IMG/VR virus record: IMGVR_UViG_2737471864_000010
Span: 1 to 41,069 of that record
From: a virus
Lineage: Duplodnaviria > Heunggongvirae > Uroviricota > Caudoviricetes
Strand: one strand, 5' to 3'
Length of the DNA stretch: 41,069 bases
Position 1 is the stretch's first letter, and every line of letters starts with the position of its first letter. The translations under genes were made by a program, and so were the position numbers. Below, one piece after another: positions 1-35,292 of the stretch. The notes beneath the pieces were generated by a model. It worked only from the letters and a program-made list of their open reading frames with translations, was not told the DNA's origin and ran no database searches.

Positions 1-933
1 ATGGACAACGACAAAATTGATCAACACAGCGACGAAATTGAAGTTGAGAGCGAAGAAAAAGAGCGCGGCAAAAAAATAGAAATAGATGAAGACCGACTCC
101 CCTCCCGGGCGATGGCAATTCATGAGCATATCCGCCAGGATGGTGAAAAAGAGCTGGAACGCGACGCAATGGCGCTACTGTGGTCAGCCATTGCGGCGGG
201 TCTGTCGATGGGCGCTTCGTTACTGGCAAAAGGGATATTTCAAGTCGAACTGGAAGGTGTGCCGGGCAGCTTCTTGCTGGAGAATCTCGGTTATACCTTT
301 GGTTTTATTATCGTCATTATGGCCCGCCAGCAATTATTTACCGAAAATACCGTGACTGCGGTACTACCCGTCATGCAAAAACCGACAATGAGCAACGTCG
401 GCTTACTTATACGGTTATGGGGCGTCGTGCTGCTGGGTAATATTCTCGGGACAGGTATTGCGGCGTGGGCATTTGAATATATGCCTATCTTCAATGAAGA
501 AACTCGCGATGCATTTGTCAAAATCGGCATGGATGTGATGAAGAACACCCCCAGCGAGATGTTTGCCAACGCGATCATTTCCGGCTGGCTGATCGCCACT
601 ATGGTTTGGATGTTTCCTGCAGCGGGTGCGGCAAAGATTGTGGTGATTATATTGATGACCTGGCTTATTGCCCTGGGTGACACCACCCATATCGTGGTCG
701 GTTCTGTTGAAATCCTCTATCTGGTGTTTAACGGTACGCTGCACTGGAGCGATTTCATCTGGCCCTTCGCACTACCTACTTTAGCGGGGAACATCTGCGG
801 CGGCACCTTTATCTTCGCGTTAATGAGTCATGCACAGATTCGTAACGACATGAGCAATAAGCGTAAAGCAGAAGCACGCCAAAAAGCAGAACGTGCGGAA
901 AACATTAAGAAAAATTATAAAAACCCGGCATAA
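1..933 (+). CDS. yfdC: Formate/nitrite transporter (FNT) family inner-membrane protein, chromosomal flank of the prophage
   Basis: 310-aa ORF with several hydrophobic segments; recognised as the YfdC-like FNT protein that sits next to argW in E. coli. Recognition from memory. Confidence 0.75.
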   Translation: MDNDKIDQHSDEIEVESEEKERGKKIEIDEDRLPSRAMAIHEHIRQDGEKELERDAMALLWSAIAAGLSMGASLLAKGIFQVELEGVPGSFLLENLGYTFGFIIVIMARQQLFTENTVTAVLPVMQKPTMSNVGLLIRLWGVVLLGNILGTGIAAWAFEYMPIFNEETRDAFVKIGMDVMKNTPSEMFANAIISGWLIATMVWMFPAAGAAKIVVIILMTWLIALGDTTHIVVGSVEILYLVFNGTLHWSDFIWPFALPTLAGNICGGTFIFALMSHAQIRNDMSNKRKAEARQKAERAENIKKNYKNPA

Positions 934-985
934 ATGGCGAGGGTTTAAGCAATCGAGCGGCAGCGTACTTACCCCGCACTCCATT

Positions 986-1005
986 AGCGGGTATACTCAT
1001 GCCGC
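986..1005 (+). promoter_or_regulatory. Candidate argW promoter -10 element (TATACT) just upstream of the tRNA 5' end
   Basis: TATACT hexamer about 12 nt upstream of the mature tRNA start; no clear -35 identified. Confidence 0.3.
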
Positions 1006-1008
1006 ATT

Positions 1009-1083
1009 GTCCTCTTAGTTAAATGGATATAACGAGCCCCTCCTAAGGGCTAATTGCAGGTTCGATTCCTGCAGGGGACACCA
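1009..1083 (+). tRNA. argW: tRNA-Arg, anticodon CCU
   Basis: 75-nt sequence GTCCTCTTAGTTAAATGGATATAACGAGCCCCTCCTAAGGGCTAATTGCAGGTTCGATTCCTGCAGGGGACACCA with cloverleaf-compatible stems, anticodon loop CTCCTAA, T-loop GGTTCGATTCC and encoded CCA. Confidence 0.9.
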
Positions 1084-1244
1084 TTTATCAGTTCGCTCCC
1101 ATCCGTACCAGTCCGCAAAACCCCCTGAATATCAAGCCTTCTGTAGATGCACAGTTCGTAATGGTTCGCGTCAGATCGTTGACAGCCGCACTCCATGACG
1201 GGTAAAAAGTGGATAAAATAATTTTACCCACCGGATTTTTACCC

Positions 1245-2402
1245 ATGCTCACCGTTAAGCAGATTGAAGCAGCAAAGCCGAAAGAAAAACCATACCGCCT
1301 ACTCGATGGTAATGGCCTGTACCTTTATGTCCCTGTATCCGGAAAAAAGGTCTGGCAGCTTCGCTACAAGATTGACGGTAAGGAAAAAATACTGACCGTA
1401 GGAAAATATCCGCTTATGACTTTGCAGGAGGCAAGGGATAAAGCATGGACTGCGAGGAAAGACATCTCGGCTGGTATCGATCCGGTAAAAGCGAAAAAGA
1501 CTTCGTCTAACAACAATTCCTTTAGCGCCATTTACAAGGAATGGTACGAGCACAAGAAGCAAGTCTGGTCAGTAGGCTATGCGACTGAACTTGCAAAAAT
1601 GTTTGATGACGACATTTTACCCATCATCGGCGGTCTTGAGATTCAGGATATTGAGCCGATGCAACTGTTGGAAGTAATCCGCAGATTTGAAGATCGCGGT
1701 GCAATGGAGCGAGCCAACAAAGCACGCAGAAGATGCGGCGAGGTTTTCCGTTACGCTATTGTCACCGGCAGGGCTAAATATAACCCGGCACCTGACCTTG
1801 CAGACGCCATGAAAGGATACCGCAAGAAGAACTTCCCGTTTCTTCCAGCAGACCAGATCCCTGCATTCAACAAAGCACTGGCAACATTTTCAGGAAGTAT
1901 CGTATCGCTCATTGCGACCAAAGTTTTACGCTATACAGCCCTAAGAACGAAAGAGCTTCGTTCCATGCAATGGAAGAACGTCGATTTTGAAAACAGGATT
2001 ATCACCATCGACGCCAATGTGATGAAGGGACGCAAAATTCATGTGGTTCCTATGTCAGACCAGGTAGTTGAACTTCTCACTACGTTAAGCTCCATCACCA
2101 AACCAGTATCAGAGTTTGTTTTTGCCGGGCGAAACGATAAGAAGAAGCCAATCTGCGAGAATGCGGTATTGCTTGTGATCAAACAAATCGGCTATGAAGG
2201 TCTGGAAAGCGGTCACGGATTCAGGCATGAATTCAGCACGATTATGAACGAGCACGAATGGCCTGCTGACGCTATTGAAGTGCAACTGGCACATGCCAAC
2301 GGCGGATCTGTGCGCGGGATTTACAACCATGCTCAGTATCTCGATAAACGCAGAGAAATGATGCAGTGGTGGGCTGACTGGATTGATGAAAAGGTTGAGT
2401 GA
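1245..2402 (+). CDS. intS: Tyrosine recombinase / prophage integrase (P4-like family), 385 aa from the internal ATG
   Basis: Track ORF 1209..2402 begins at a GTG; the ATG at 1245 gives MLTVKQIEAAKPKEKPYRL..., the typical N-terminus of P4-like integrases, and a C-terminal catalytic region ending ...HAQYLDKRREMMQWWADWID. Position next to argW matches IntS of CPS-53-type prophages. Confidence 0.85.
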   Translation: MLTVKQIEAAKPKEKPYRLLDGNGLYLYVPVSGKKVWQLRYKIDGKEKILTVGKYPLMTLQEARDKAWTARKDISAGIDPVKAKKTSSNNNSFSAIYKEWYEHKKQVWSVGYATELAKMFDDDILPIIGGLEIQDIEPMQLLEVIRRFEDRGAMERANKARRRCGEVFRYAIVTGRAKYNPAPDLADAMKGYRKKNFPFLPADQIPAFNKALATFSGSIVSLIATKVLRYTALRTKELRSMQWKNVDFENRIITIDANVMKGRKIHVVPMSDQVVELLTTLSSITKPVSEFVFAGRNDKKKPICENAVLLVIKQIGYEGLESGHGFRHEFSTIMNEHEWPADAIEVQLAHANGGSVRGIYNHAQYLDKRREMMQWWADWIDEKVE

Positions 2403-2523: not shown

Positions 2524-4359
2524 TCAATCAACCATTGATGGGAATGATGTTGCTATAGTAAGAACAGAACCTGAAGGAAATGATTGAATTGTAACATTTC
2601 CGTTAGCCGAAATATTGATCAGTGCTATAGCATTGTTTGTTCCACAAGGTATATAAGATATATCTTTTTCTGGCCTGAACCCTGAAGGAAGATTCATTAT
2701 AACCGTTCCAACAGAAGTTGCCCCTCCAGTTAAAACGCAATTTATATTTATAATACCATCCAGAGATTTTTGGTATGTCCCTTTCCTTGATTCTCCTATA
2801 ACCCATCCATTTTGTAACAGGCCAGATATTTCATATTGCTTACCACGCCACTGTGACCATGTGTTCTCACTTATCCTTCCTATGCGAGTAAAACACACTC
2901 TGCTACTTTCAGATATATATCCATATAATTTTTGCAACACTACTCCATCAACAAATCTATCGACCTGAATAACACCATCAAGAGGCCAAGAAGAATCATC
3001 AGGATTTGTTCTCCACCATGAAGTCCCCATATGAAACGTATTTGGTGGATATGAACTACCAACAAATTGCAAAGATGAACCATTGTTAGAAAATAAATTA
3101 GAACTTCCATTTACTACTTTGCATGGGCCATATATGTAATCAAGTAACTCATGGTGAATTTGGGCGCTAAAAACATAATTTGGATGAATTCCGCGACCAT
3201 CCACATATGGATTATCAAGCCAGTTACCTGCTGCGCCTCTGGAATCCTGCCACATACCGTAAGTGTCAAAAAACATGCACTTATATTGTTTAGCTTTAGC
3301 TCTAAGCACGGCTGTTAACTGTTCATACCATTTTTCATCACGTCCGTTTGGTGTGTCTGATGTTGAGTTTGGGGACATGATAATAATTGATTGCTGGGAA
3401 ACTGATTTGTTATTTCGTAACTTGGAAAGACCTCTATCTAATGCGTCTTTTACTTGATCCAATGTATAACCATAATATGGATCGTTAATTCCCCATCGTA
3501 AAACAATCAAATCAGCAGCAGAAAAAACAGACCATTCCCGATCAATATACCAATTACCCCATTCGTATAGAGTTTTACCTGAATGACCTAACGATGTATT
3601 TTTTACATCAATAATTCCATACCTTTTTGCATAAAAATCAGCGATAGTGGCTGGAGGCCATGACTCAGAGTTTACACCAACTATAGTGGAGTCTCCAGAC
3701 CATAAAATATATGTTTTTTTATCTGAAGTTACTCCGTCACCGTTAATAAGTTTATTTGTAACATAATTTAAATACTCTTGACCTATAACAAATCTATTCC
3801 TCGGATTTGTGTATGTTGATAACTGGACACCATCCCTATTAAAAACTCTTCCCCTTCTAGCATCGATTTCCACACCATAATCATTGTTAATAGAATCAAC
3901 AACCTCATCTTCATTAATTGTTAACACCGTCTGACCTGAGACGGATGAATTAATAGCGTCTTGTATTTTTGTTTCGATAGCGCCAGATCTTTTAATGTCT
4001 TTTTCAGCACGATAATATGCCTGATCTGGGTCATATTTTAACACATTCGGAAAATAGAACTGCTGTGCACCATATGCATCATAAACAGCCATAGAATGGC
4101 CTTGCACAGTTACGAACTTGGCAATCTGTCCGTTATATACCGGGTAACCAGCAGCGTTAATGATGATTGGTTGCGATACAGGAACGTGAGAGCCATCTTC
4201 GTTCTCCACATAAACCTGCACTTGATTCTGTGGGAGCGTAGGATCGGAATCTATCTTACCAATGAATATCTTGCCATTGCTTGCGGCCTGGAATTTTCTG
4301 GCTAACGTAAATAGTTGACTTGGCATTGAAATTATAACATTTGGCACAATATTTGACAT
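2524..4359 (-). CDS. Tailspike protein: P22-type N-terminal head-binding domain fused to an SGNH/GDSL-hydrolase-like (esterase) domain
   Basis: N-terminal ~110 aa (…NGKIFIGKIDSDPTLPQNQVQVYVENEDGSHV…VTVQGHSMAVYDAYG…NVLKYDPDQ) closely resembles the P22 gp9 head-binding domain; central region carries SGNH blocks WSGDSTIVG, RWGINDP and DGRGIHP. The 3' two-thirds is visibly AT-rich. Confidence 0.75.
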   Translation of the reverse strand: MSNIVPNVIISMPSQLFTLARKFQAASNGKIFIGKIDSDPTLPQNQVQVYVENEDGSHVPVSQPIIINAAGYPVYNGQIAKFVTVQGHSMAVYDAYGAQQFYFPNVLKYDPDQAYYRAEKDIKRSGAIETKIQDAINSSVSGQTVLTINEDEVVDSINNDYGVEIDARRGRVFNRDGVQLSTYTNPRNRFVIGQEYLNYVTNKLINGDGVTSDKKTYILWSGDSTIVGVNSESWPPATIADFYAKRYGIIDVKNTSLGHSGKTLYEWGNWYIDREWSVFSAADLIVLRWGINDPYYGYTLDQVKDALDRGLSKLRNNKSVSQQSIIIMSPNSTSDTPNGRDEKWYEQLTAVLRAKAKQYKCMFFDTYGMWQDSRGAAGNWLDNPYVDGRGIHPNYVFSAQIHHELLDYIYGPCKVVNGSSNLFSNNGSSLQFVGSSYPPNTFHMGTSWWRTNPDDSSWPLDGVIQVDRFVDGVVLQKLYGYISESSRVCFTRIGRISENTWSQWRGKQYEISGLLQNGWVIGESRKGTYQKSLDGIININCVLTGGATSVGTVIMNLPSGFRPEKDISYIPCGTNNAIALINISANGNVTIQSFPSGSVLTIATSFPSMVD

Positions 4360-4379: not shown

Positions 4380-4874
4380 ATGAATATGATTACTCATAAA
4401 GAATTAACCTCTTCACTCAACTACAACCCAGAAACAGGCGTCTTCACTTGGAAGATAGCTTCTGGTAGCTCCAGTATCGGAAAGGTTGCTGGATTTAAGA
4501 CGAACTCACAGGCCGACTACTTATCAATACGGATTAATGGAAAATCGTATCTTTGCCACCGACTTGCTTGGTTTTATATGAAAGGATGCTGGCCTAAAGG
4601 GTTAATTGACCATATTAACGGGGTTAAAAATGACAATAGAATTTCAAACCTAAGAGAAGTAACCAGAGGTCAGAATAAAACCAACAGCGTTTCATCATCC
4701 AATACAGGTATAAAAGGAGTTCATCTTCTTAAAGGGAAAAACACATATAAAGTTATGTTCAAACTAAAAGGTAAGTCTATTTTCCTTGGGTATACCGATG
4801 ATATTGAGCTGGCAGAATTAATGTCTATTGCATTCAGGGAAAAATATCATGGCGAGTTTGCTTGTTTTAGGTAA
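4380..4874 (+). CDS. HNH homing endonuclease with AP2-like DNA-binding domain (paralog 1 of 3)
   Basis: 164 aa; motifs NYNPETG, HRLAW, DHINGVKNDNRISNLR and C-terminal GIKGV…KYHGEF; AAGGA ribosome-binding site 7 nt upstream. Confidence 0.75.
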   Translation: MNMITHKELTSSLNYNPETGVFTWKIASGSSSIGKVAGFKTNSQADYLSIRINGKSYLCHRLAWFYMKGCWPKGLIDHINGVKNDNRISNLREVTRGQNKTNSVSSSNTGIKGVHLLKGKNTYKVMFKLKGKSIFLGYTDDIELAELMSIAFREKYHGEFACFR

Positions 4875-4907: not shown

Positions 4908-5007
4908 ATCGCCGCAGCATGGCTACGGTTGGCGTTTGTTTGGTTTTTGAACTACGAAAATTTCGTAGTGCTATCCATCAAGGCCATCGCCGCAGCATGG
5001 CTACGGT
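4908..5007. repeat. Two copies of a 22-bp direct repeat (ATCGCCGCAGCATGGCTACGGT) flanking a perfect 19-bp palindrome (ACTACGAAAATTTCGTAGT)
   Basis: Direct reading; copies at about 4908-4929 and 4986-5007, palindrome at about 4951-4969. Confidence 0.6.
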
Positions 5008-5062: not shown

Positions 5063-5986
5063 TCAGTAGTTATGTACTGAAGGAGGTAATTCTTTATTCT
5101 TAAGTCTCATCCATGCGGAAAGATTCGCTGGTCCGTCTGGCTCATTAATATCAACATCTCGTGTGTGGTTTATTAAAACGTCTCTCGCCATTCCTATAAC
5201 ATACGAGAACTCATGACCGTAGTCGTAACATCTGCCGGAATAGTTCGATTGAATTTGTTTTAGCGCCGGATACAATTCGCGGAATAATGCCTGTGAGCGG
5301 TTGGCATAATCCCATAACCATACGAGGCTGTTTGCTTCTTTTGCAGAAAGCTCGTTGGTTTTCTTCTCTTGTTTGCAGATGAACTCACCTTCAAGCGGAA
5401 CGCGAGCTGCAAGTGACAGTGCTTCGGTAAACTGCTCCTCACTAATTTCTTTGTACGAACATCCAAAATGGGATTTCAGTGACGACCACATGGTGATCAT
5501 CGCCTTAGCCTGTTTTTCTTTTGGCAGAGACTGACCGCGACTCATGACGAGTTGTTTAATGGCTTCCTGCTGTTCAGTGGTGATTTTACCCTGCAACGCC
5601 TTTTTAGCTTTGCGTGGGTTAACTACATGGCCTTTAGTCCAGTACTCATAGAGCACATCGTCACACTCTTCCTGATACTGGATTACCTTGTCGCGGATTT
5701 CAGGGCGGACTTTGTTTGGACTGATGGTTTGCAACCAGCCATTAAGTTTACGTAAAGCAAGGCAAATCATGTTCTGCACACCGCCAACTGAAGGTATTGC
5801 GATTTCCACAATACCTTTAGCAAATCTTTGTTTTAACTTTGTAAACTGTGAAGCCCAATCCATACCCATTCCCTCAACGATAGGTTTCATTGGGGTGTAC
5901 GGCTCACCGTTGTGATTGACAACATAAAGCTCTGCGCCGTGGAATGGTACATTGATAGTAGATACTGCTGTTGCTATACTTTTCAT
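5063..5986 (-). CDS. ant: Antirepressor (Ant-like) protein
   Basis: 307 aa located downstream of an Arc-like gene and divergent from mnt, as in the P22 immI region; N-terminal region resembles phage antirepressor domains. Recognition from memory. Confidence 0.55.
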   Translation of the reverse strand: MKSIATAVSTINVPFHGAELYVVNHNGEPYTPMKPIVEGMGMDWASQFTKLKQRFAKGIVEIAIPSVGGVQNMICLALRKLNGWLQTISPNKVRPEIRDKVIQYQEECDDVLYEYWTKGHVVNPRKAKKALQGKITTEQQEAIKQLVMSRGQSLPKEKQAKAMITMWSSLKSHFGCSYKEISEEQFTEALSLAARVPLEGEFICKQEKKTNELSAKEANSLVWLWDYANRSQALFRELYPALKQIQSNYSGRCYDYGHEFSYVIGMARDVLINHTRDVDINEPDGPANLSAWMRLKNKELPPSVHNY

Positions 5987-6049
5987 GTCGTTAATTCCTA
6001 TGCGTGGTTTTACGATACCGAAGCCCTGACTGTTACCGCAGTTGGGGCT

Positions 6050-6253
6050 TCAACTTTCTGCTCTATCAGTTATATCTTTCCCTTCATATACTTCACCTAT
6101 ATTGCTAATGCTGGCAGAACATCCAAGATGCTTGTATCTTATGATGTCCAACACGCAGTCACTACACAGCATCCGACCTGTTTCTTTAGAGTAAATGTAT
6201 GTTTGATCAGCGTCTGATTCGCTAATGCCGCAGAAACAACATTCTTTACTCAT
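6050..6253 (-). CDS. Small Cys-rich (zinc-ribbon-like) hypothetical protein between arc and ant
   Basis: 67 aa with CCFC…CSDC cysteine pairs; start overlaps the arc stop. Confidence 0.4.
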   Translation of the reverse strand: MSKECCFCGISESDADQTYIYSKETGRMLCSDCVLDIIRYKHLGCSASISNIGEVYEGKDITDRAES

Positions 6254-6390
6254 ACCGTTATCCCCTCTCTCTTCAGGCTGTCCATCACCCGTTTAATTAC
6301 TTCTGCACTAAATGAGCGACACTCTTCCTTTGCTTTCTCTTCAAGGATTTTTTCTAACTTCTCTGGCATACGCAGTGTTTTTACCTTCAT
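6250..6390 (-). CDS. arc: Arc-like ribbon-helix-helix repressor (below the ORF-track length cutoff)
   Basis: Hand-called 46-aa ORF MKVKTLRMPEKLEKILEEKAKEECRSFSAEVIKRVMDSLKREGITV with a GGAGG ribosome-binding site; resembles P22 Arc. Confidence 0.5.
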   Translation of the reverse strand: MKVKTLRMPEKLEKILEEKAKEECRSFSAEVIKRVMDSLKREGITV

Positions 6391-6489
6391 TGCATCCTCC
6401 GTTGTATGTGGTACGCATACATAGTATTTAGGTACGCATTGATAGTCAATAGATACCTACATATCCTGTGGTAAAAAATTATTCAGGAT
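6391..6489. promoter_or_regulatory. Divergent immI control region (Pant/Pmnt-type) with operator-like palindromes
   Basis: Intergenic region between divergent arc and mnt-like genes; contains repeated GGTACGCAT and the palindrome ATTGATAGTCAAT. Confidence 0.4.
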
Positions 6490-6495
6490 GTGCCG

Positions 6496-6753
6496 ATGTC
6501 TGATCGTAAGTACAAAAACCCTCAAGTGAATCTGAGGCTTCCTGTAGAGATAAAGGAACGTCTTATTGAACTGGCTGAGGCTAATTCTCGTTCATTAAAT
6601 GCTGAGATGGTCGCGGCACTTGAAGCATGGACCGAAAAAAATAAACACATTCAAGCACTAGACCTTGCAACTATAGCATCACGATTGATAGATCTTGAAC
6701 ATGATGTTGAGAAGTTGAAATGCATGTATAGCAACAATAAAGACGAAAGTTAG
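6496..6753 (+). CDS. Ribbon-helix-helix (Arc/Mnt family) DNA-binding protein, second Mnt-like paralog
   Basis: Track ORF starts at a GTG at 6490; the ATG at 6496 with an AGGA site is preferred. The N-terminus NLRLPVEIKERLIELAEANSRSLNAEMVAAL fits the RHH pattern. Confidence 0.55.
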   Translation: MSDRKYKNPQVNLRLPVEIKERLIELAEANSRSLNAEMVAALEAWTEKNKHIQALDLATIASRLIDLEHDVEKLKCMYSNNKDES

Positions 6754-6776
6754 AGATACTAACTTGGAGTGATGGC

Positions 6777-7028
6777 ATGGCTAGAGACGATCCGCACTTT
6801 AACTTCCGTATGCCTTTGGAAGTAAGAGAAAAATTGAAATTAAGAGCAGAGGCTAACGGAAGGTCAATGAACTCAGAGTTATTACAAATCGTTCAGGATG
6901 CGCTATCAAAACCATCACCGATTGCAGGCTATCGAGACGATGCAGAACGCATCGCTGATGAGCAGTCCGAACTTGTTAGGAAGATGGTGTTTGATACGCT
7001 GAAGGATTTGTACAAAAAACCCACCTGA
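6777..7028 (+). CDS. mnt: Mnt repressor (ribbon-helix-helix)
   Basis: 83 aa MARDDPHFNFRMPLEVREKLKLRAEANGRSMNSELLQIVQDAL…, very close to P22 Mnt as I recall it. Confidence 0.8.
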   Translation: MARDDPHFNFRMPLEVREKLKLRAEANGRSMNSELLQIVQDALSKPSPIAGYRDDAERIADEQSELVRKMVFDTLKDLYKKPT

Positions 7029-7040
7029 CGGTGGGTTTTA
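7013..7040. terminator. Bidirectional intrinsic terminator between mnt and the convergent two-gene cassette
   Basis: AAAAAA-CCCACC-TGAC-GGTGGG-TTTT; overlaps the mnt stop codon. Confidence 0.6.
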
Positions 7041-7460
7041 TTAGTGCTTGTATAGGTTGAACTCTCTATCAAGCCATATAACAAAAAATGTCGATCCAAG
7101 ACGATAACCAACCATGGCTTTCAAATCATCAAATCTAAAAGCCAAGAAATGATCTACGTCTTCCGTTATATGACTGGGGATACCTGCTTTAATTGCACCC
7201 CTTGCAATCTTCTCAAATCCAAGCTTATGCCTACCTTGCTGCTTAATATCTGCCCATGTTAGTTGACTTAATCTGTATAATTTATCAGCTAAGCCAGCTT
7301 TCTCATCTTTTTGGCATTTCGTTATGCAGTGAGAGCTTTGGATGTAACAGAATGAAAATTTCGGTTTCTTTTGATCTGAATTCCCCCCTGACTGCGGCCC
7401 TAACTTTAACTTACCTGTAGATTCAGCAGGGGGGATAATCCTTTTAGATTTTCTTGCCAT
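7041..7460 (-). CDS. Hypothetical protein, candidate toxin partner of the upstream Panacea-domain protein
   Basis: 139 aa from MARKSKRIIPP…; starts 4 nt after the upstream stop. C-terminus …GYRLGSTFFVIWLDREFNLYKH loosely recalls RelE/YoeB-type toxin C-termini. No confident family assignment. Confidence 0.4.
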   Translation of the reverse strand: MARKSKRIIPPAESTGKLKLGPQSGGNSDQKKPKFSFCYIQSSHCITKCQKDEKAGLADKLYRLSQLTWADIKQQGRHKLGFEKIARGAIKAGIPSHITEDVDHFLAFRFDDLKAMVGYRLGSTFFVIWLDREFNLYKH

Positions 7461-7464
7461 CTCG

Positions 7465-7914
7465 TTAGTTAATCCGAGTTGCAAAGTACTCTGCCATCTC
7501 CTTAGAACTAATTTCAGAACCACCAACACCCTCAATATAGTTTGATCTCCATGGTGACTCTTCGTGTGTCATGTTCCTCAGTTTCCAGGCAGAAAATTGC
7601 CCAAAAACATCCCAGACTTCTTCTAATAGCTCTAACTGTTCTTCGCTGAATTTTTCAGCATCAAAAGACTCTGGAGAAGGGATAGCACCATTACCATATT
7701 GTTTATAACGGTGATAAAGCTCAGGGACAACAGGGCCATGCATCCAAGCTTCCATCTTATTCTGAAAAAGAGGCTCGCCAAGCAACGCCAATGAAAAACC
7801 CTGAGCATAGTAAACAAGCTTTTGTAATTTTAAATTAGAGATTGCGTCACCGCTATCCTCGTCACACCGCGACAGGAAGTAGTCGGCGACATCAAAACAA
7901 GTAAGCATGAACAC
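7465..7914 (-). CDS. DUF4065 / Panacea-domain protein (COG3600, GepA-like), candidate antitoxin
   Basis: 149 aa with the characteristic NLKLQKLVYYAQGFSLALLGEPLF…EAWMHGPVVPELY block; GGAGGTG ribosome-binding site. Recognition from memory. Confidence 0.6.
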   Translation of the reverse strand: MFMLTCFDVADYFLSRCDEDSGDAISNLKLQKLVYYAQGFSLALLGEPLFQNKMEAWMHGPVVPELYHRYKQYGNGAIPSPESFDAEKFSEEQLELLEEVWDVFGQFSAWKLRNMTHEESPWRSNYIEGVGGSEISSKEMAEYFATRIN

Positions 7915-34274: not shown

Positions 34275-34505
34275 TTACATAACAAACTGCTGTTTACCGA
34301 TACGGCGAATCTGTGCTGCTGAGTACTTGCCGCCTGATGCCTTGGCGATCTTATCCGCATATTCGGTTTCACCAGTGAACTCGGTACGCGGCAGAGAACC
34401 ACGCTCAAGCCACTTATAGATGGCTTTTGGCGTAAGTCCACAAACATCAGCCACAACAGAAACTCGAACGGATTTGATAACTTCTCCAAACGTAACTTCG
34501 TTCAT
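34275..34505 (-). CDS. cro: Cro-like helix-turn-helix repressor
   Basis: 76 aa, divergent from cI, AGGAGA site 6 nt upstream; helix-turn-helix VADVCGLTPKAIYKWLERG. Confidence 0.6.
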   Translation of the reverse strand: MNEVTFGEVIKSVRVSVVADVCGLTPKAIYKWLERGSLPRTEFTGETEYADKIAKASGGKYSAAQIRRIGKQQFVM

Positions 34506-34520
34506 GCTTCTCTCCTGCGG

Positions 34521-34592
34521 TGAACTTATGGTTCATATTATGACGGAACTGATAGTACAGTCAATACCTAATATAGTTGAACTTATGGTTCA
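34521..34592. promoter_or_regulatory. Immunity control region: two copies of a 15-bp operator palindrome TGAACTTATGGTTCA, PR for cro, and PRM-like promoter for cI
   Basis: Operator copies at about 34521-34535 and 34578-34592; minus-strand PR -35 TTGACT and -10 ATAATA with a 17-bp spacer; plus-strand TAATAT 10 nt before the cI ATG. Confidence 0.6.
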
Positions 34593-35292
34593 ACAGAAAG
34601 AGCGTGAAACTTTCTCGCAGAGGCTTGCGCTGGCCTGTGATAAAGCGGGATTACCTTTGCATGGTAGGCAGGCTGATTTAGCTGTCAGGCTTAAGGTCAC
34701 ACCAAAAGCCATTAGTAAATGGTTCAACGGGGAGTCAATACCAAGAAAAGACAAGATGGAATCTCTGGCTTCGGTGCTGGGAACTACTGCTGCATATCTG
34801 CATGGCTATGCTGATGATGACGGTATCACGGTAAATCATCTATCAAGATCAAATGATTATTATCGTGTTGATGTATTGGATGTTCAGGCGAGCGCCGGGC
34901 CAGGAACCATGGTTTCCAATGAATTTATAGAAAAGATAAGAGCAATTGAATATACGACCGAGCAGGCAAGAATTTTATTTAATGGAAGGCCACAGGAAAG
35001 CGTAAAAGTCATCACGGTTCGCGGTGACAGCATGGAGGGAACCATCAATCCGGGAGATGAGATCTTTGTTGATGTATCCATAACCTGTTTTGATGGCGAT
35101 GGCATTTATGTGTTTGTATACGGGAAAACAATGCACGTTAAGCGCCTGCAAATGCAAAAGAACAGGCTTGCCGTCATCTCTGACAATGCCGCTTATGATC
35201 GATGGTACATAGAAGAAGGTGAAGAAGAGCAACTTCACATTCTAGCCAAAGTCCTCATTAGGCAGTCAATCGATTACAAGCGATTCGGATAA
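34585..35292 (+). CDS. cI: CI-type prophage repressor (N-terminal helix-turn-helix, C-terminal S24 LexA-like autopeptidase domain)
   Basis: Track ORF 34420..35292 trimmed to the ATG at 34585 because the longer form overlaps cro and the promoter; helix-turn-helix QADLAVRLKVTPKAISKWFNG; S24 Ser motif VRGDSMEG and Lys in GKTMHVKRLQ. Confidence 0.85.
   Translation: MVQQKERETFSQRLALACDKAGLPLHGRQADLAVRLKVTPKAISKWFNGESIPRKDKMESLASVLGTTAAYLHGYADDDGITVNHLSRSNDYYRVDVLDVQASAGPGTMVSNEFIEKIRAIEYTTEQARILFNGRPQESVKVITVRGDSMEGTINPGDEIFVDVSITCFDGDGIYVFVYGKTMHVKRLQMQKNRLAVISDNAAYDRWYIEEGEEEQLHILAKVLIRQSIDYKRFG

What the first reader, a model, noticed from the sequence alone, without database searches (positions are those of the whole stretch)
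6050..7040. Expanded immI-type second immunity region with two Mnt-like repressors
Besides arc, a small Cys-rich protein and ant on the minus strand, the plus strand has two consecutive ribbon-helix-helix genes: one very close to P22 Mnt and a second, more divergent paralog (6496..6753). The divergent control region (6391-6489) carries repeated GGTACGCAT and the palindrome ATTGATAGTCAAT. A duplicated Mnt suggests additional operator specificity or cross-immunity control.
Basis: partly seen in the sequence, partly recalled or inferred. Interest (0 to 1): 0.45.

Follow-up and report, generated by a model that had tools for sequence, protein, structure and literature searches.

The report
Stacked Mnt repressors in prophage immI
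A P22-like E. coli prophage carries a complete antirepressor-control region of a non-P22 type, plus an extra P22-type Mnt repressor gene that has no binding site in the prophage and may silence the antirepressor of invading P22-type phages.

Summary
On the minus strand lie ant, the sar antisense RNA, a 67-aa Cys-rich ORF and a 46-aa Arc-like gene. On the plus strand two Mnt-family ribbon-helix-helix genes sit 23 bp apart (6496-6753 and 6777-7028). The GGTACGCAT repeat and the ATTGATAGTCAAT palindrome are real.

It is not a local duplication. The "divergent" gene (RHH2) is the resident Mnt of a separate, widespread immI type. It is the only Mnt-like gene in 61 of 78 related viral loci. It always sits beside the same ~60-bp control core, which stays nearly unchanged even where the protein is only about 50% identical.

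The P22-like Mnt (90% identical to P22 Mnt, DNA-reading arm identical) is an added cassette. It keeps only the P22 mnt leader. The P22 mnt operator is absent from the whole 41-kb window at up to 4 mismatches.

Other loci stack different Mnt types, up to three in a row. My best reading is that the extra Mnt acts in trans on superinfecting P22-type phages. This is inferred, not shown.

The two-gene arrangement is already annotated in phage CUS-3 (2007), so novelty is modest.

The parts
5063..5986 (-). ant, antirepressor (307 aa)
   Evidence: Matches PF10547 at 1.8e-45 and PF10548 at 5.6e-30. It is 57% identical to P22 Ant.
5952..5980 (+). Psar-like promoter (TTGATA-17-TATACT, with TG)
   Evidence: Consensus scan, 10 of 12 positions. 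It lies just upstream of the sar match, at the position of Psar in the P22 record.
5988..6055 (+). sar antisense RNA, opposite the ant translation start
   Evidence: Rfam RF00262, 85.7 bits against a gathering score of 43, E 7e-18, full-length match 1-68.
6050..6253 (-). orf67, a Cys-rich 67-aa ORF between arc' and sar/ant. Its start overlaps the arc' stop (ATGA). Function unknown.
   Evidence: Matches phrog_7150 at 3e-50, unknown function. No Pfam hit. Only 5 clusters in 5.8 billion proteins. Present in only part of the related loci. The AlphaFold model is poor, pLDDT 56.
6250..6390 (-). arc', a 46-aa Arc-like RHH repressor and the first gene of the ant operon
   Evidence: Matches PF03869 at 2.9e-9. 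PDB Arc entries hit at 5e-4 and pArc at 3e-8. The N-terminus MKVKT[LI]RMPE is nearly invariant in related loci. It is not annotated in CUS-3.
6403..6421 (.). Site A: 19-bp near-palindrome TGTATGTGGTACGCATACA. It covers the predicted start and the -10 edge of the leftward (ant) promoter.
   Evidence: Read from the sequence; the terminator-type scan also lists it as an 8-pair stem. It is conserved in 45 unique homologous control regions. Its position matches that of Omnt in P22.
6410..6451 (+). Two tandem 21-bp units, each beginning GGTACGCAT
   Evidence: 76% identity, spacing 21 bp; exactly 2 copies in the window, 0.18 expected.
6425..6463 (.). Site B: inverted repeat with 18-nt arms centred on ATTGATAGTCAAT. 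It covers the -35 hexamers of both divergent promoters.
   Evidence: The palindrome core is two -35 boxes sharing one base: TTGATA (+, 6439-6444) and TTGACT (-, 6449-6444). This is the most conserved part of the region.
6421..6449 (-). Predicted leftward promoter for arc'-orf67-ant (TTGACT-17-TACTAT)
   Evidence: Consensus scan, 9 of 12 positions. It lies inside the conserved core. There is no experimental evidence.
6439..6467 (+). Predicted rightward promoter for RHH2-mnt (TTGATA-17-TATCCT)
   Evidence: Consensus scan, 9 of 12 positions. There is no experimental evidence.
6496..6753 (+). RHH2 (mnt'), an 85-aa Mnt-family repressor and the cognate maintenance repressor of this immI type
   Evidence: Family assignment rests. 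The N-terminal arm YK[NH]PQVNLRLP is invariant in all relatives found. The conserved control core lies upstream in 87 of 89 loci. The C-terminal heptad helix 57-83 has block-mean pLDDT of about 85-91.
6759..6776 (+). Retained P22 mnt leader with its Shine-Dalgarno (CTAACTTGGAGTGATGGC). This is the left junction of the added cassette.
   Evidence: It is identical to the 18 nt before the mnt ATG in P22 and in 76 P22-type loci. The P22 promoter and operator sequence that precedes it in P22 is missing here.
6777..7028 (+). P22-type mnt (83 aa), second cistron, with no promoter or operator of its own
   Evidence: Matches PF03869 and PF11423. It is 90% identical to P22 Mnt, with residues 1-13 identical. 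No Omnt is found anywhere in the window.
7016..7041 (+). Terminator hairpin overlapping the last mnt codons (AAAACCCACC TGAC GGTGGGTTTT)
   Evidence: Fold energy -18.1 kcal/mol, z -4.4. The same unit ends the RHH2 gene of SEN22 and a type-D Mnt.

Best explanation
The region is a mosaic immI (second immunity) region.

(1) A complete immI module of a non-P22 specificity type occupies 5063-6753. It consists of ant, sar, orf67, arc', a ~60-bp divergent promoter/operator core, and RHH2. RHH2 is this module's own Mnt. It is made from the rightward promoter in the lysogen and keeps the leftward arc'-orf67-ant promoter shut. By position, site A (6403-6421, at the ant promoter start) corresponds to Omnt. 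Site B (6425-6463, over both -35 boxes) corresponds to Oarc.

(2) A P22-type mnt cistron was fused 23 bp after the RHH2 stop. It begins at about the 5' end of the P22 mnt mRNA and carries none of the P22 promoter or operator DNA. It is therefore co-transcribed with RHH2 and ends at a shared terminator.

(3) This Mnt keeps the P22 DNA-reading arm, but the prophage has no P22 operator. Its most likely targets are therefore in trans: the P22-type Pant/Omnt of superinfecting or co-resident P22-like phages. Blocking their Ant would stop them from inactivating the resident CI/C2-type repressor. That would extend immI immunity to a second specificity.

Steps 1 and 2 are shown by sequence comparison. 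The assignment of operators to proteins, and step 3, are inferred.
For: RHH2 is the cognate Mnt of this module:
- It is a full-length Mnt homologue.
- In 78 IMG/VR loci it is the only Mnt-like gene in 61. Phage SEN22 also has it alone, with arc' and ant.
- The control core is found upstream in 87 of 89 loci that have the RHH2 motif. It is at least 80-95% conserved over 45 unique versions, down to Photorhabdus, Xenorhabdus and Arsenophonus relatives with 48-59% protein identity, while the flanking leaders diverge.
- The RHH2 N-arm is invariant.

The P22-type mnt is an added, operator-less cassette:
- The junction keeps only the P22 leader.
- Omnt is absent from the whole window at up to 4 mismatches, and from every stacked locus at up to 3.
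- In contrast, 76 of 82 P22-type mnt loci have Omnt and Oarc immediately upstream.

The added gene looks functional:
- It is intact in the stacked copies examined.
- Residues 1-13 are conserved apart from two single substitutions (D4N in L020, M12I in L015).
- dN/dS of the RHH domain is 0.02-0.08 in pairs with dS of about 0.7-1.6.
- It has its own Shine-Dalgarno, and no terminator separates it from RHH2.

Stacking recurs:
- 16 of 78 loci carry a second or third Mnt-family gene, with partners of at least 6 different beta-strand types.
- One locus has three in a row (type C + RHH2 + P22-type).
- There are reciprocal cases in which RHH2 is itself the passenger, lacking its own core.

Targets exist in the same host:
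- Among 5426 complete E. coli genomes, the P22-type control region is in 173, the RHH2-type in 146, and the stack in 45.
- Classical P22-type ant-arc-mnt prophages are present in E. coli.

Precedent for a lone Mnt without ant or arc: phages L, ST64T and ST104 (PMC2629481, PMC8022706).
Against: - No expression or binding data exist for any of these proteins.
- In another E. coli P22-like lysogen (Kapi1), mnt transcripts were below detection (PMC12922286).
- All RHH2 + P22-type stacks share one junction, so they descend from a single event that could have spread by hitch-hiking.
- The low dN/dS may largely reflect alleles imported by recombination from P22-type phages, where the gene has its operator, rather than selection in the stacked state.
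- The GGTACGCAT motif occurs in both site A and site B, so the Mnt/Arc-by-position assignment may be wrong. RHH2 could bind both sites.
- Whether a P22-type Ant inactivates this prophage's repressor (34420-35292) is unknown.
- The right end of the prophage may lie just beyond the window.
Confidence: 0.55

Rival explanations
1. The P22-type mnt is a neutral passenger. It is a leftover of one recombination between two immI types, is carried along in the RHH2 operon, and has no role.
For: - All RHH2 + P22-type stacks have the identical junction, which points to a single origin.
- The region between gene 16 and the tailspike is known to be in rapid flux (PMC2629481).
- The prophage contains no operator for it.
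- An mnt-like gene of phage L has been suggested to be a remnant (PMC8022706).
Against: - The gene is intact with a conserved DNA-reading arm in every stacked copy examined, including one where RHH2 itself is frameshifted (L086).
- The RHH domain shows strong purifying selection.
- Stacking with at least 6 other Mnt types arose independently.
- The stack is found in 45 complete E. coli genomes.
Confidence: 0.25
2. Both Mnt proteins act in cis on the local control region, giving two-layer control of this phage's own ant.
For: - The control region is complex: two tandem 21-bp units plus a long inverted repeat.
- Both genes sit in one operon beside it.
Against: - There is no sequence within 4 mismatches of Omnt.
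- The control core is the same in loci with RHH2 alone and in stacked loci, so no element correlates with the presence of the second gene.
- The Mnt reading arm is identical to that of P22 Mnt. P22 Mnt's operator matches site A at only 3 of 17 positions (read from the sequences).
Confidence: 0.08
3. RHH2 and the P22-type Mnt form mixed tetramers with a new, hybrid operator specificity.
For: Both have a C-terminal helix after the RHH domain. P22 Mnt is a tetramer held by that helix (established knowledge of the family).
Against: - The RHH2 C-terminus does not match PF11423.
- It aligns to the Mnt tail only with gaps.
- RHH2 works without a partner in most loci.
- No hybrid half-site arrangement is visible in the window.
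Confidence: 0.05
4. The pair is a toxin-antitoxin or plasmid-partition-type module. Some pipelines name these proteins "partition protein ATPase".
For: PHROG and RefSeq-derived names for phrog_795 and for the phage records.
Against: - Both proteins are 83-85 aa RHH DNA binders with no ATPase or toxin domain.
- The name is an annotation error carried over from P22 Mnt records.
- A separate candidate toxin-antitoxin pair lies next door, at 7041-7914.
Confidence: 0.01

Closest known systems
Phage P22 immI region (mnt / Omnt-Oarc / arc / sar / ant)
   Same: - The same gene kinds in the same order and orientation, between the gene 16 homologue and the tailspike.
- ant with the P22_AR domains, and a sar RNA at its start.
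- A small Arc-like first gene, and a divergent Mnt-family gene.
- Two operator-like palindromes at the same distances from the arc start: about 22 and 54 bp here, against about 28 and 53 bp in P22.
   Different: - The operator sequences are unrelated to Omnt and Oarc.
- The predicted promoters are back-to-back and share only their -35 boxes, whereas in P22 the two promoters overlap fully.
- There is an extra ORF (orf67) between arc' and sar.
- Arc' is 46 aa, with a different beta-strand.
- There are two Mnt-family cistrons instead of one.
Phage CUS-3 (CP000711) "ant moron"
   Same: The same arrangement at 94.7% DNA identity. Both plus-strand genes are already annotated as "mnt: phage regulatory protein" (ECRS218_0005 and _0006).
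   Different: - arc' and orf67 are not annotated in CUS-3, where they lie inside "bsq2, boundary sequence".
- The epsilon34 paper concluded that CUS-3 lacks arc (PMC2629481), whereas a 46-aa Arc homologue is present.
- In the papers I could search and read, I found no analysis of why there are two mnt genes.
Salmonella phage SEN22 (KT630648) immI
   Same: It has arc', a control core identical to the window's at all but two positions, and an RHH2 that is 84% identical.
   Different: - It has no second Mnt and no orf67, and its ant is disrupted by a transposon.
- It shows the RHH2-type module in its unstacked form.
Lone mnt genes of phages L, ST64T and ST104
   Same: Each has an Mnt-family gene kept in the prophage without an ant to control in cis (PMC2629481, PMC8022706). 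The extra Mnt here is in the same position: a repressor without a local target.
   Different: In those phages the lone gene is the only immI remnant. Here the orphan rides behind a complete, different immI module.
Trans-acting antirepressor crosstalk among Gifsy/Fels prophages (Lemire et al. 2011, PMC3121763)
   Same: It shows that antirepressors of one prophage can inactivate repressors of another. This is the threat that an extra Mnt would counter.
   Different: - Those antirepressors are LexA-controlled, Tum-like proteins, not Mnt/Arc-controlled Ant.
- No stacked repressors are described there.

Membership tests
P22-type immI second immunity region | ant gene encoding a P22-family antirepressor | tested here: met
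   PF10547 and PF10548.
P22-type immI second immunity region | sar antisense RNA overlapping the ant translation start | tested here: met
   RF00262, 85.7 bits against a gathering score of 43.
P22-type immI second immunity region | Small Arc-family repressor as the first gene of the ant operon | tested here: met
   A 46-aa ORF matching PF03869 at 2.9e-9, with PDB Arc hits.
P22-type immI second immunity region | Divergently transcribed Mnt-family repressor | tested here: met
   RHH2 and mnt.
P22-type immI second immunity region | P22 operators Omnt (AGGTCCACCGTGGACCT) and Oarc between arc and mnt | tested here: not met
   No match in the window at up to 4 mismatches. The control core has a different sequence. 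This is therefore the same kind of system with a different specificity type.
P22-type immI second immunity region | Mnt represses Pant in the lysogen; Arc represses both promoters late in infection | not testable with these tools
   Needs reporter or in vitro transcription assays.
Mnt repressor family (RHH2, 6496-6753) | N-terminal Arc/Mnt-type ribbon-helix-helix domain | tested here: met
   PF03869 at 3.3e-10; 1mnt at 1.7e-5; hhalign 98.8%.
Mnt repressor family (RHH2, 6496-6753) | C-terminal Mnt tetramerisation helix (PF11423) | tested here: inconclusive
   - No PF11423 hit.
- hhalign extends to the C-terminus with gaps.
- The AlphaFold single-sequence model has a helix at 57-83.
- Residues L57, I60, L64, L67, V71, L74 follow a 3-4 heptad spacing, read directly from the sequence.
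Mnt repressor family (RHH2, 6496-6753) | Tetramer that binds a roughly 17-21-bp symmetric operator | not testable with these tools
   A 19-bp near-palindrome sits at the expected position (6403-6421), but binding is untested.
Mnt repressor family (second gene, 6777-7028) | RHH domain plus the Repressor_Mnt C-terminal domain, with the P22 reading residues | tested here: met
   PF03869 at 1e-27 and PF11423 at 1.6e-17. Residues 1-13 are identical to P22 Mnt.
Mnt repressor family (second gene, 6777-7028) | Cognate operator adjacent to the gene | tested here: not met
   Absent here and in all stacked loci; present in 76 of 82 P22-type loci.
Type II toxin-antitoxin with RHH antitoxin / ParG-like partition protein | A partner toxin or ParA ATPase encoded next to the RHH gene in the same operon | tested here: not met
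   The neighbour in the operon is another RHH protein, followed by a terminator.

The most novel reading that the evidence does not exclude
P22-like prophages collect operator-less Mnt repressors of foreign specificities in the one operon that is always on in the lysogen. Arrays reach at least three. Each extra Mnt would act in trans to silence the antirepressor promoter of a different immI type. The array would then be an expandable anti-induction immunity that protects the resident prophage from being forced out by heterotypic relatives.
Probability: 0.4. Interest if true: 0.6.

Novelty: new variant of a known kind. Interest (0 to 1): 0.42.

Why it matters
immI is a textbook regulatory circuit, and Arc and Mnt are classic models of protein-DNA recognition. 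Its natural diversity has hardly been analysed.

If the extra Mnt acts in trans, it would be a simple way for a prophage to resist antirepressor-mediated induction by related phages. It would also explain why lone mnt genes persist in phages such as L and ST64T.

The very strongly conserved RHH2-type control core, together with two invariant reading arms, offers a second natural Arc/Mnt-like operator system for specificity studies.

On the practical side, the analysis corrects two points. CUS-3-type regions do have an arc gene. The "partition protein ATPase" names on these proteins are wrong.

Tried and rejected
- The genome-contig scan with RHH2 returned only 8 distant loci, because the collection holds one genome per species. 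They were useful for operator conservation but not for prevalence.
- The CUS-3 paper (PMC1951898) is not held in the library. Five literature searches found no treatment of tandem mnt genes.
- orf67 remains unexplained:
  - No Pfam family matched.
  - Only 5 protein clusters were found.
  - There is a weak RING-like Cys-pattern hit to RNF4 at E 0.005.
  - The AlphaFold single-sequence model has pLDDT 56, too poor for a fold search.
- The AlphaFold single-sequence model of RHH2 merges the two RHH helices and leaves the beta-strand unstructured, as expected for an obligate dimer. I used it only for the C-terminal helix.
- I tried to assign site A and site B to RHH2 or Arc' by covariation. It failed because both sites and both reading arms are nearly invariant. 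Arc' beta-strands do vary (KTLRMP, SSVRFP, VSVRMP) without a matching operator change, so the assignment rests on position only.
- RNAalifold on the -10/Shine-Dalgarno hairpin gave no consensus structure. Folding each sequence alone was suggestive only.
- I considered toxin-antitoxin and partition readings and rejected them on domain content.
- I considered a P22 Oarc-like site for RHH2, which shares the Q/N/R reading residues with P22 Arc. The core contains no inverted pair of TAGA boxes.
Full report
WHAT IS THERE

The window is a P22-like (Lederbergvirus) prophage in E. coli.
- It starts in host DNA: a formate/nitrite-transporter-family ORF at 1-933 and tRNA-Arg(CCT) at 1009-1083.
- An integrase follows at 1209-2402, and then the phage runs from the tailspike to the early-left genes.
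- The immI segment is 100% identical to a prophage of E. coli STEC346 and 94.7% identical to phage CUS-3.

Between the tailspike and the gene 16 homologue I find the following:
- ant, 5063-5986 (-).
- A Psar-like promoter and a full-length sar antisense RNA, 5988-6055 (+), 85.7 bits.
- A 67-aa Cys-rich ORF, 6050-6253 (-), whose start overlaps the stop of the next gene.
- A 46-aa Arc homologue, arc', 6250-6390 (-).
- A 105-bp divergent control region.
- RHH2, 6496-6753 (+).
- 23 bp of spacer.
- A P22-type mnt, 6777-7028 (+).
- A terminator hairpin that overlaps the last mnt codons.

This includes the two exact GGTACGCAT copies (0.18 expected in the whole window) and the palindrome ATTGATAGTCAAT.

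THE CONTROL REGION

The two GGTACGCAT copies head two adjacent 21-bp units, 6410-6430 and 6431-6451, which are 76% identical. The palindrome is the centre of an inverted repeat with 18-nt arms, 6425-6442 and 6446-6463.

The palindrome core is also two -35 hexamers that share one base: TTGATA for a rightward promoter and TTGACT for a leftward one. Each has a 17-bp spacer and a plausible -10.

A 19-bp near-palindrome, TGTATGTGGTACGCATACA (6403-6421), lies at the predicted start of the leftward promoter.

Measured from the arc start, these two symmetric elements sit about where Omnt and Oarc sit in P22. By position, site A is the Mnt-type operator and site B the Arc-type operator. This is inference only. 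The shared 9-mer means that one protein could bind both.

WHICH MNT BELONGS TO THIS REGION

RHH2 is a true, full-length Mnt homologue:
- Pfam Arc domain at 3.3e-10.
- The Mnt phrog at 2e-25 over residues 1-82.
- Best PDB hit Mnt (1mnt).
- Profile-profile match to an alignment of Mnt-family proteins at 98.8% probability, E 1e-16, residues 8-85 against 5-82.
- A C-terminal heptad helix.

It is only about 31% identical to the neighbouring Mnt, so this is not a recent duplication.

I collected 80 viral loci and 8 genome loci that encode RHH2 relatives.
- RHH2 is the only Mnt-like gene in 61 of the 78 viral loci that could be scored, and also in phage SEN22.
- In 87 of 89 loci with the RHH2 motif, the same control core lies directly upstream.
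- Over 45 unique versions the core (about 6402-6461) is 80-95% or more conserved. This holds in Photorhabdus, Xenorhabdus and Arsenophonus, where RHH2 is only 48-59% identical.
- The flanking ribosome-binding leaders are not conserved.
- The RHH2 N-terminal arm YK[NH]PQVNLRLP is invariant.

RHH2, arc' and this core therefore form one coherent immI specificity type, distinct from P22's.

THE P22-TYPE MNT IS AN ADD-ON

The second gene is 90% identical to P22 Mnt, and residues 1-13, the DNA-reading arm, are identical.

Homology with P22 starts 18 nt before the ATG (CTAACTTGGAGTGATGGC). That is roughly the start of the P22 mnt mRNA. The P22 promoter and operator DNA that precedes this leader in P22 is missing.

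The P22 mnt operator does not occur anywhere in the 41-kb window at up to 4 mismatches, nor in any stacked locus at up to 3. In contrast, 76 of 82 loci with a P22-type mnt have Omnt and Oarc directly upstream. The 6 that do not all sit behind RHH2 with the identical junction.

The control core is the same whether or not the second gene is present. Nothing in cis correlates with it.

IS THE ADD-ON FUNCTIONAL?

- It has its own Shine-Dalgarno.
- No terminator lies between it and RHH2.
- It is intact in the stacked copies examined. In one of them RHH2 itself is frameshifted.
- Its RHH domain shows dN/dS of 0.02-0.08 between alleles whose synonymous divergence is about 0.7-1.6.

Caveat: the single junction means a single origin. 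The allele diversity was probably imported by recombination from P22-type phages, so the selection signal is not specific to the stacked state.

STACKING IS RECURRENT

Sixteen of the 78 loci carry more than one Mnt-family gene in the operon. The partners have at least six different beta-strand types: PHFNFRMP, PLGIRIP, PYSVRMP, PQINIRVS, PFGVRMT and PFGLRMP.
- One locus has three genes in a row: type C, RHH2, then P22-type.
- In the two loci where type C comes first, the control region is a different one with its own repeats (CTACACCGTG twice, plus CTACACTGTGTAG), and the RHH2 core is absent. There, RHH2 is itself the passenger.
- In the loci where I could test this (the RHH2-first stacks and the two type-C-first stacks), the first gene matches the adjacent control region and the later genes lack their own.

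In other loci the same operon carries unrelated cargo. Examples are a gene annotated as a Rap1a/Tai family immunity protein downstream of mnt in a P22-type E. coli prophage, and a 178-aa ORF that phiv205-1 annotates as a head maturation protease. This fits a slot for functions expressed from the prophage.

MOST LIKELY MECHANISM

In the lysogen the rightward promoter makes one RHH2-mnt transcript. RHH2 keeps this phage's arc'-orf67-ant operon off. The P22-type Mnt has nothing to bind in the prophage, so the simplest function is in trans. It would occupy Omnt on incoming or co-resident P22-type-immI phages and block their Ant.

Such phages share the host. Among 5426 complete E. coli genomes, the P22-type control region is in 173, the RHH2-type in 146, and the stack in 45. 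Classical P22-type ant-arc-mnt prophages are present in E. coli.

Antirepressors acting across prophages are documented (PMC3121763). From memory, not verified here, P22 Ant is known to act on repressors of several lambdoid phages.

I give the mosaic and cognate-assignment part about 0.85 and the trans-immunity part about 0.4-0.45.

Points against:
- There are no expression or binding data.
- mnt was not detected in RNA-seq of another E. coli P22-like lysogen (PMC12922286).
- The passenger explanation cannot be excluded.

COMPARISON WITH WHAT IS KNOWN

This is an immI region in kind: ant, sar, arc and a divergent mnt are all present. It fails the P22 operator test, so it is a different specificity type.

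The two-gene arrangement is not new as an annotation. CUS-3 (2007) lists both genes as mnt. The epsilon34 comparative paper drew the CUS-3 region but concluded that it lacks arc and so must control ant differently (PMC2629481). The 46-aa arc' shows that conclusion was due to a missed small ORF.

Lone mnt genes in L, ST64T and ST104 are a known oddity (PMC2629481, PMC8022706). The present reading would explain them as well.

In the searchable library I found no paper that treats tandem or orphan Mnt genes as a class.

VERDICT

It is partly wrong: there was no duplication, and there is no extra local operator.
- This is a new variant of a known kind of system. The arrangement itself is already in the databases.
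- Interest is moderate. The idea is cheaply testable with CUS-3.

Noticed in passing
window 6460-6492: The inverted repeat CATATCCTG / CAGGATGTG pairs the predicted -10 of the RHH2 promoter with the RHH2 Shine-Dalgarno. Several distant homologous loci keep a hairpin here with different sequences (CCATG/CATGG, TCTTA/TAAGA, CCTGTAA/TTACGGG), but not all do. It could matter on the late read-through (minus-strand) transcript or on transcripts that start upstream.
   Followed up: partly
window 7041-7914 (-): A SocA/Panacea-domain protein (7465-7908, PF13274 at 8e-25) is followed by a 139-aa protein of unknown function (7041-7460, phrog_8366). This is probably a PanA-type antitoxin/toxin pair. It converges on the mnt terminator. 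The same pair is present in phages Emek and phiv205-1.
   Followed up: partly
window 6050-6253 (-): orf67 has a CxxC...CxxC pattern and is translationally coupled to arc' inside the ant operon. It is present in only some RHH2-type loci and absent from P22 and SEN22. The family is very narrow (5 protein clusters). Its function is unknown.
   Followed up: partly
window 4908-4929 and 4986-5007: An exact 22-nt direct repeat, ATCGCCGCAGCATGGCTACGGT, occurs 78 bp apart between the HNH ORF and the ant terminator. It lies in the stretch that CUS-3 annotates as "bsq1, boundary sequence".
   Followed up: no
window 4380-4874 (+): An HNH_3 endonuclease ORF (164 aa) lies between the tailspike and ant, on the opposite strand. 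It may be a free-standing homing endonuclease. It is absent from CUS-3 at this position.
   Followed up: no
window 2524-4359 (-): The tailspike combines the P22 head-binding domain with a GDSL/SGNH esterase domain, so it is probably a deacetylase-type receptor-destroying enzyme rather than a glycosidase.
   Followed up: no
window 1-2402: The window begins in host DNA (formate/nitrite-transporter-family gene, tRNA-Arg CCT). The integrase lies directly next to the tailspike, as in the argW prophage CUS-3. This prophage gene order differs from that of P22.
   Followed up: partly
L020 2244-3036 (IMGVR_UViG_2541047931_000005): Three Mnt-family genes lie in tandem (type C, RHH2, P22-type), followed by an overlapping 178-aa ORF that phiv205-1 annotates as a head maturation protease. 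This is the longest stack seen.
   Followed up: partly
L001 4017-4498 (CUS-3 CP000711 6505-6986): The CUS-3 record annotates this stretch only as "bsq2, boundary sequence". It in fact contains sar, orf67, arc' and the control core. The published statement that CUS-3 lacks arc should be corrected.
   Followed up: yes
window 6496-6540: The beta-strand of RHH2 (PQVNLRLP) carries the same three DNA-reading residues (Q, N, R) as P22 Arc and is nearly identical to the Arc FV10 mutant (PQVNLRWP). Yet the local operators do not resemble Oarc.
   Followed up: partly
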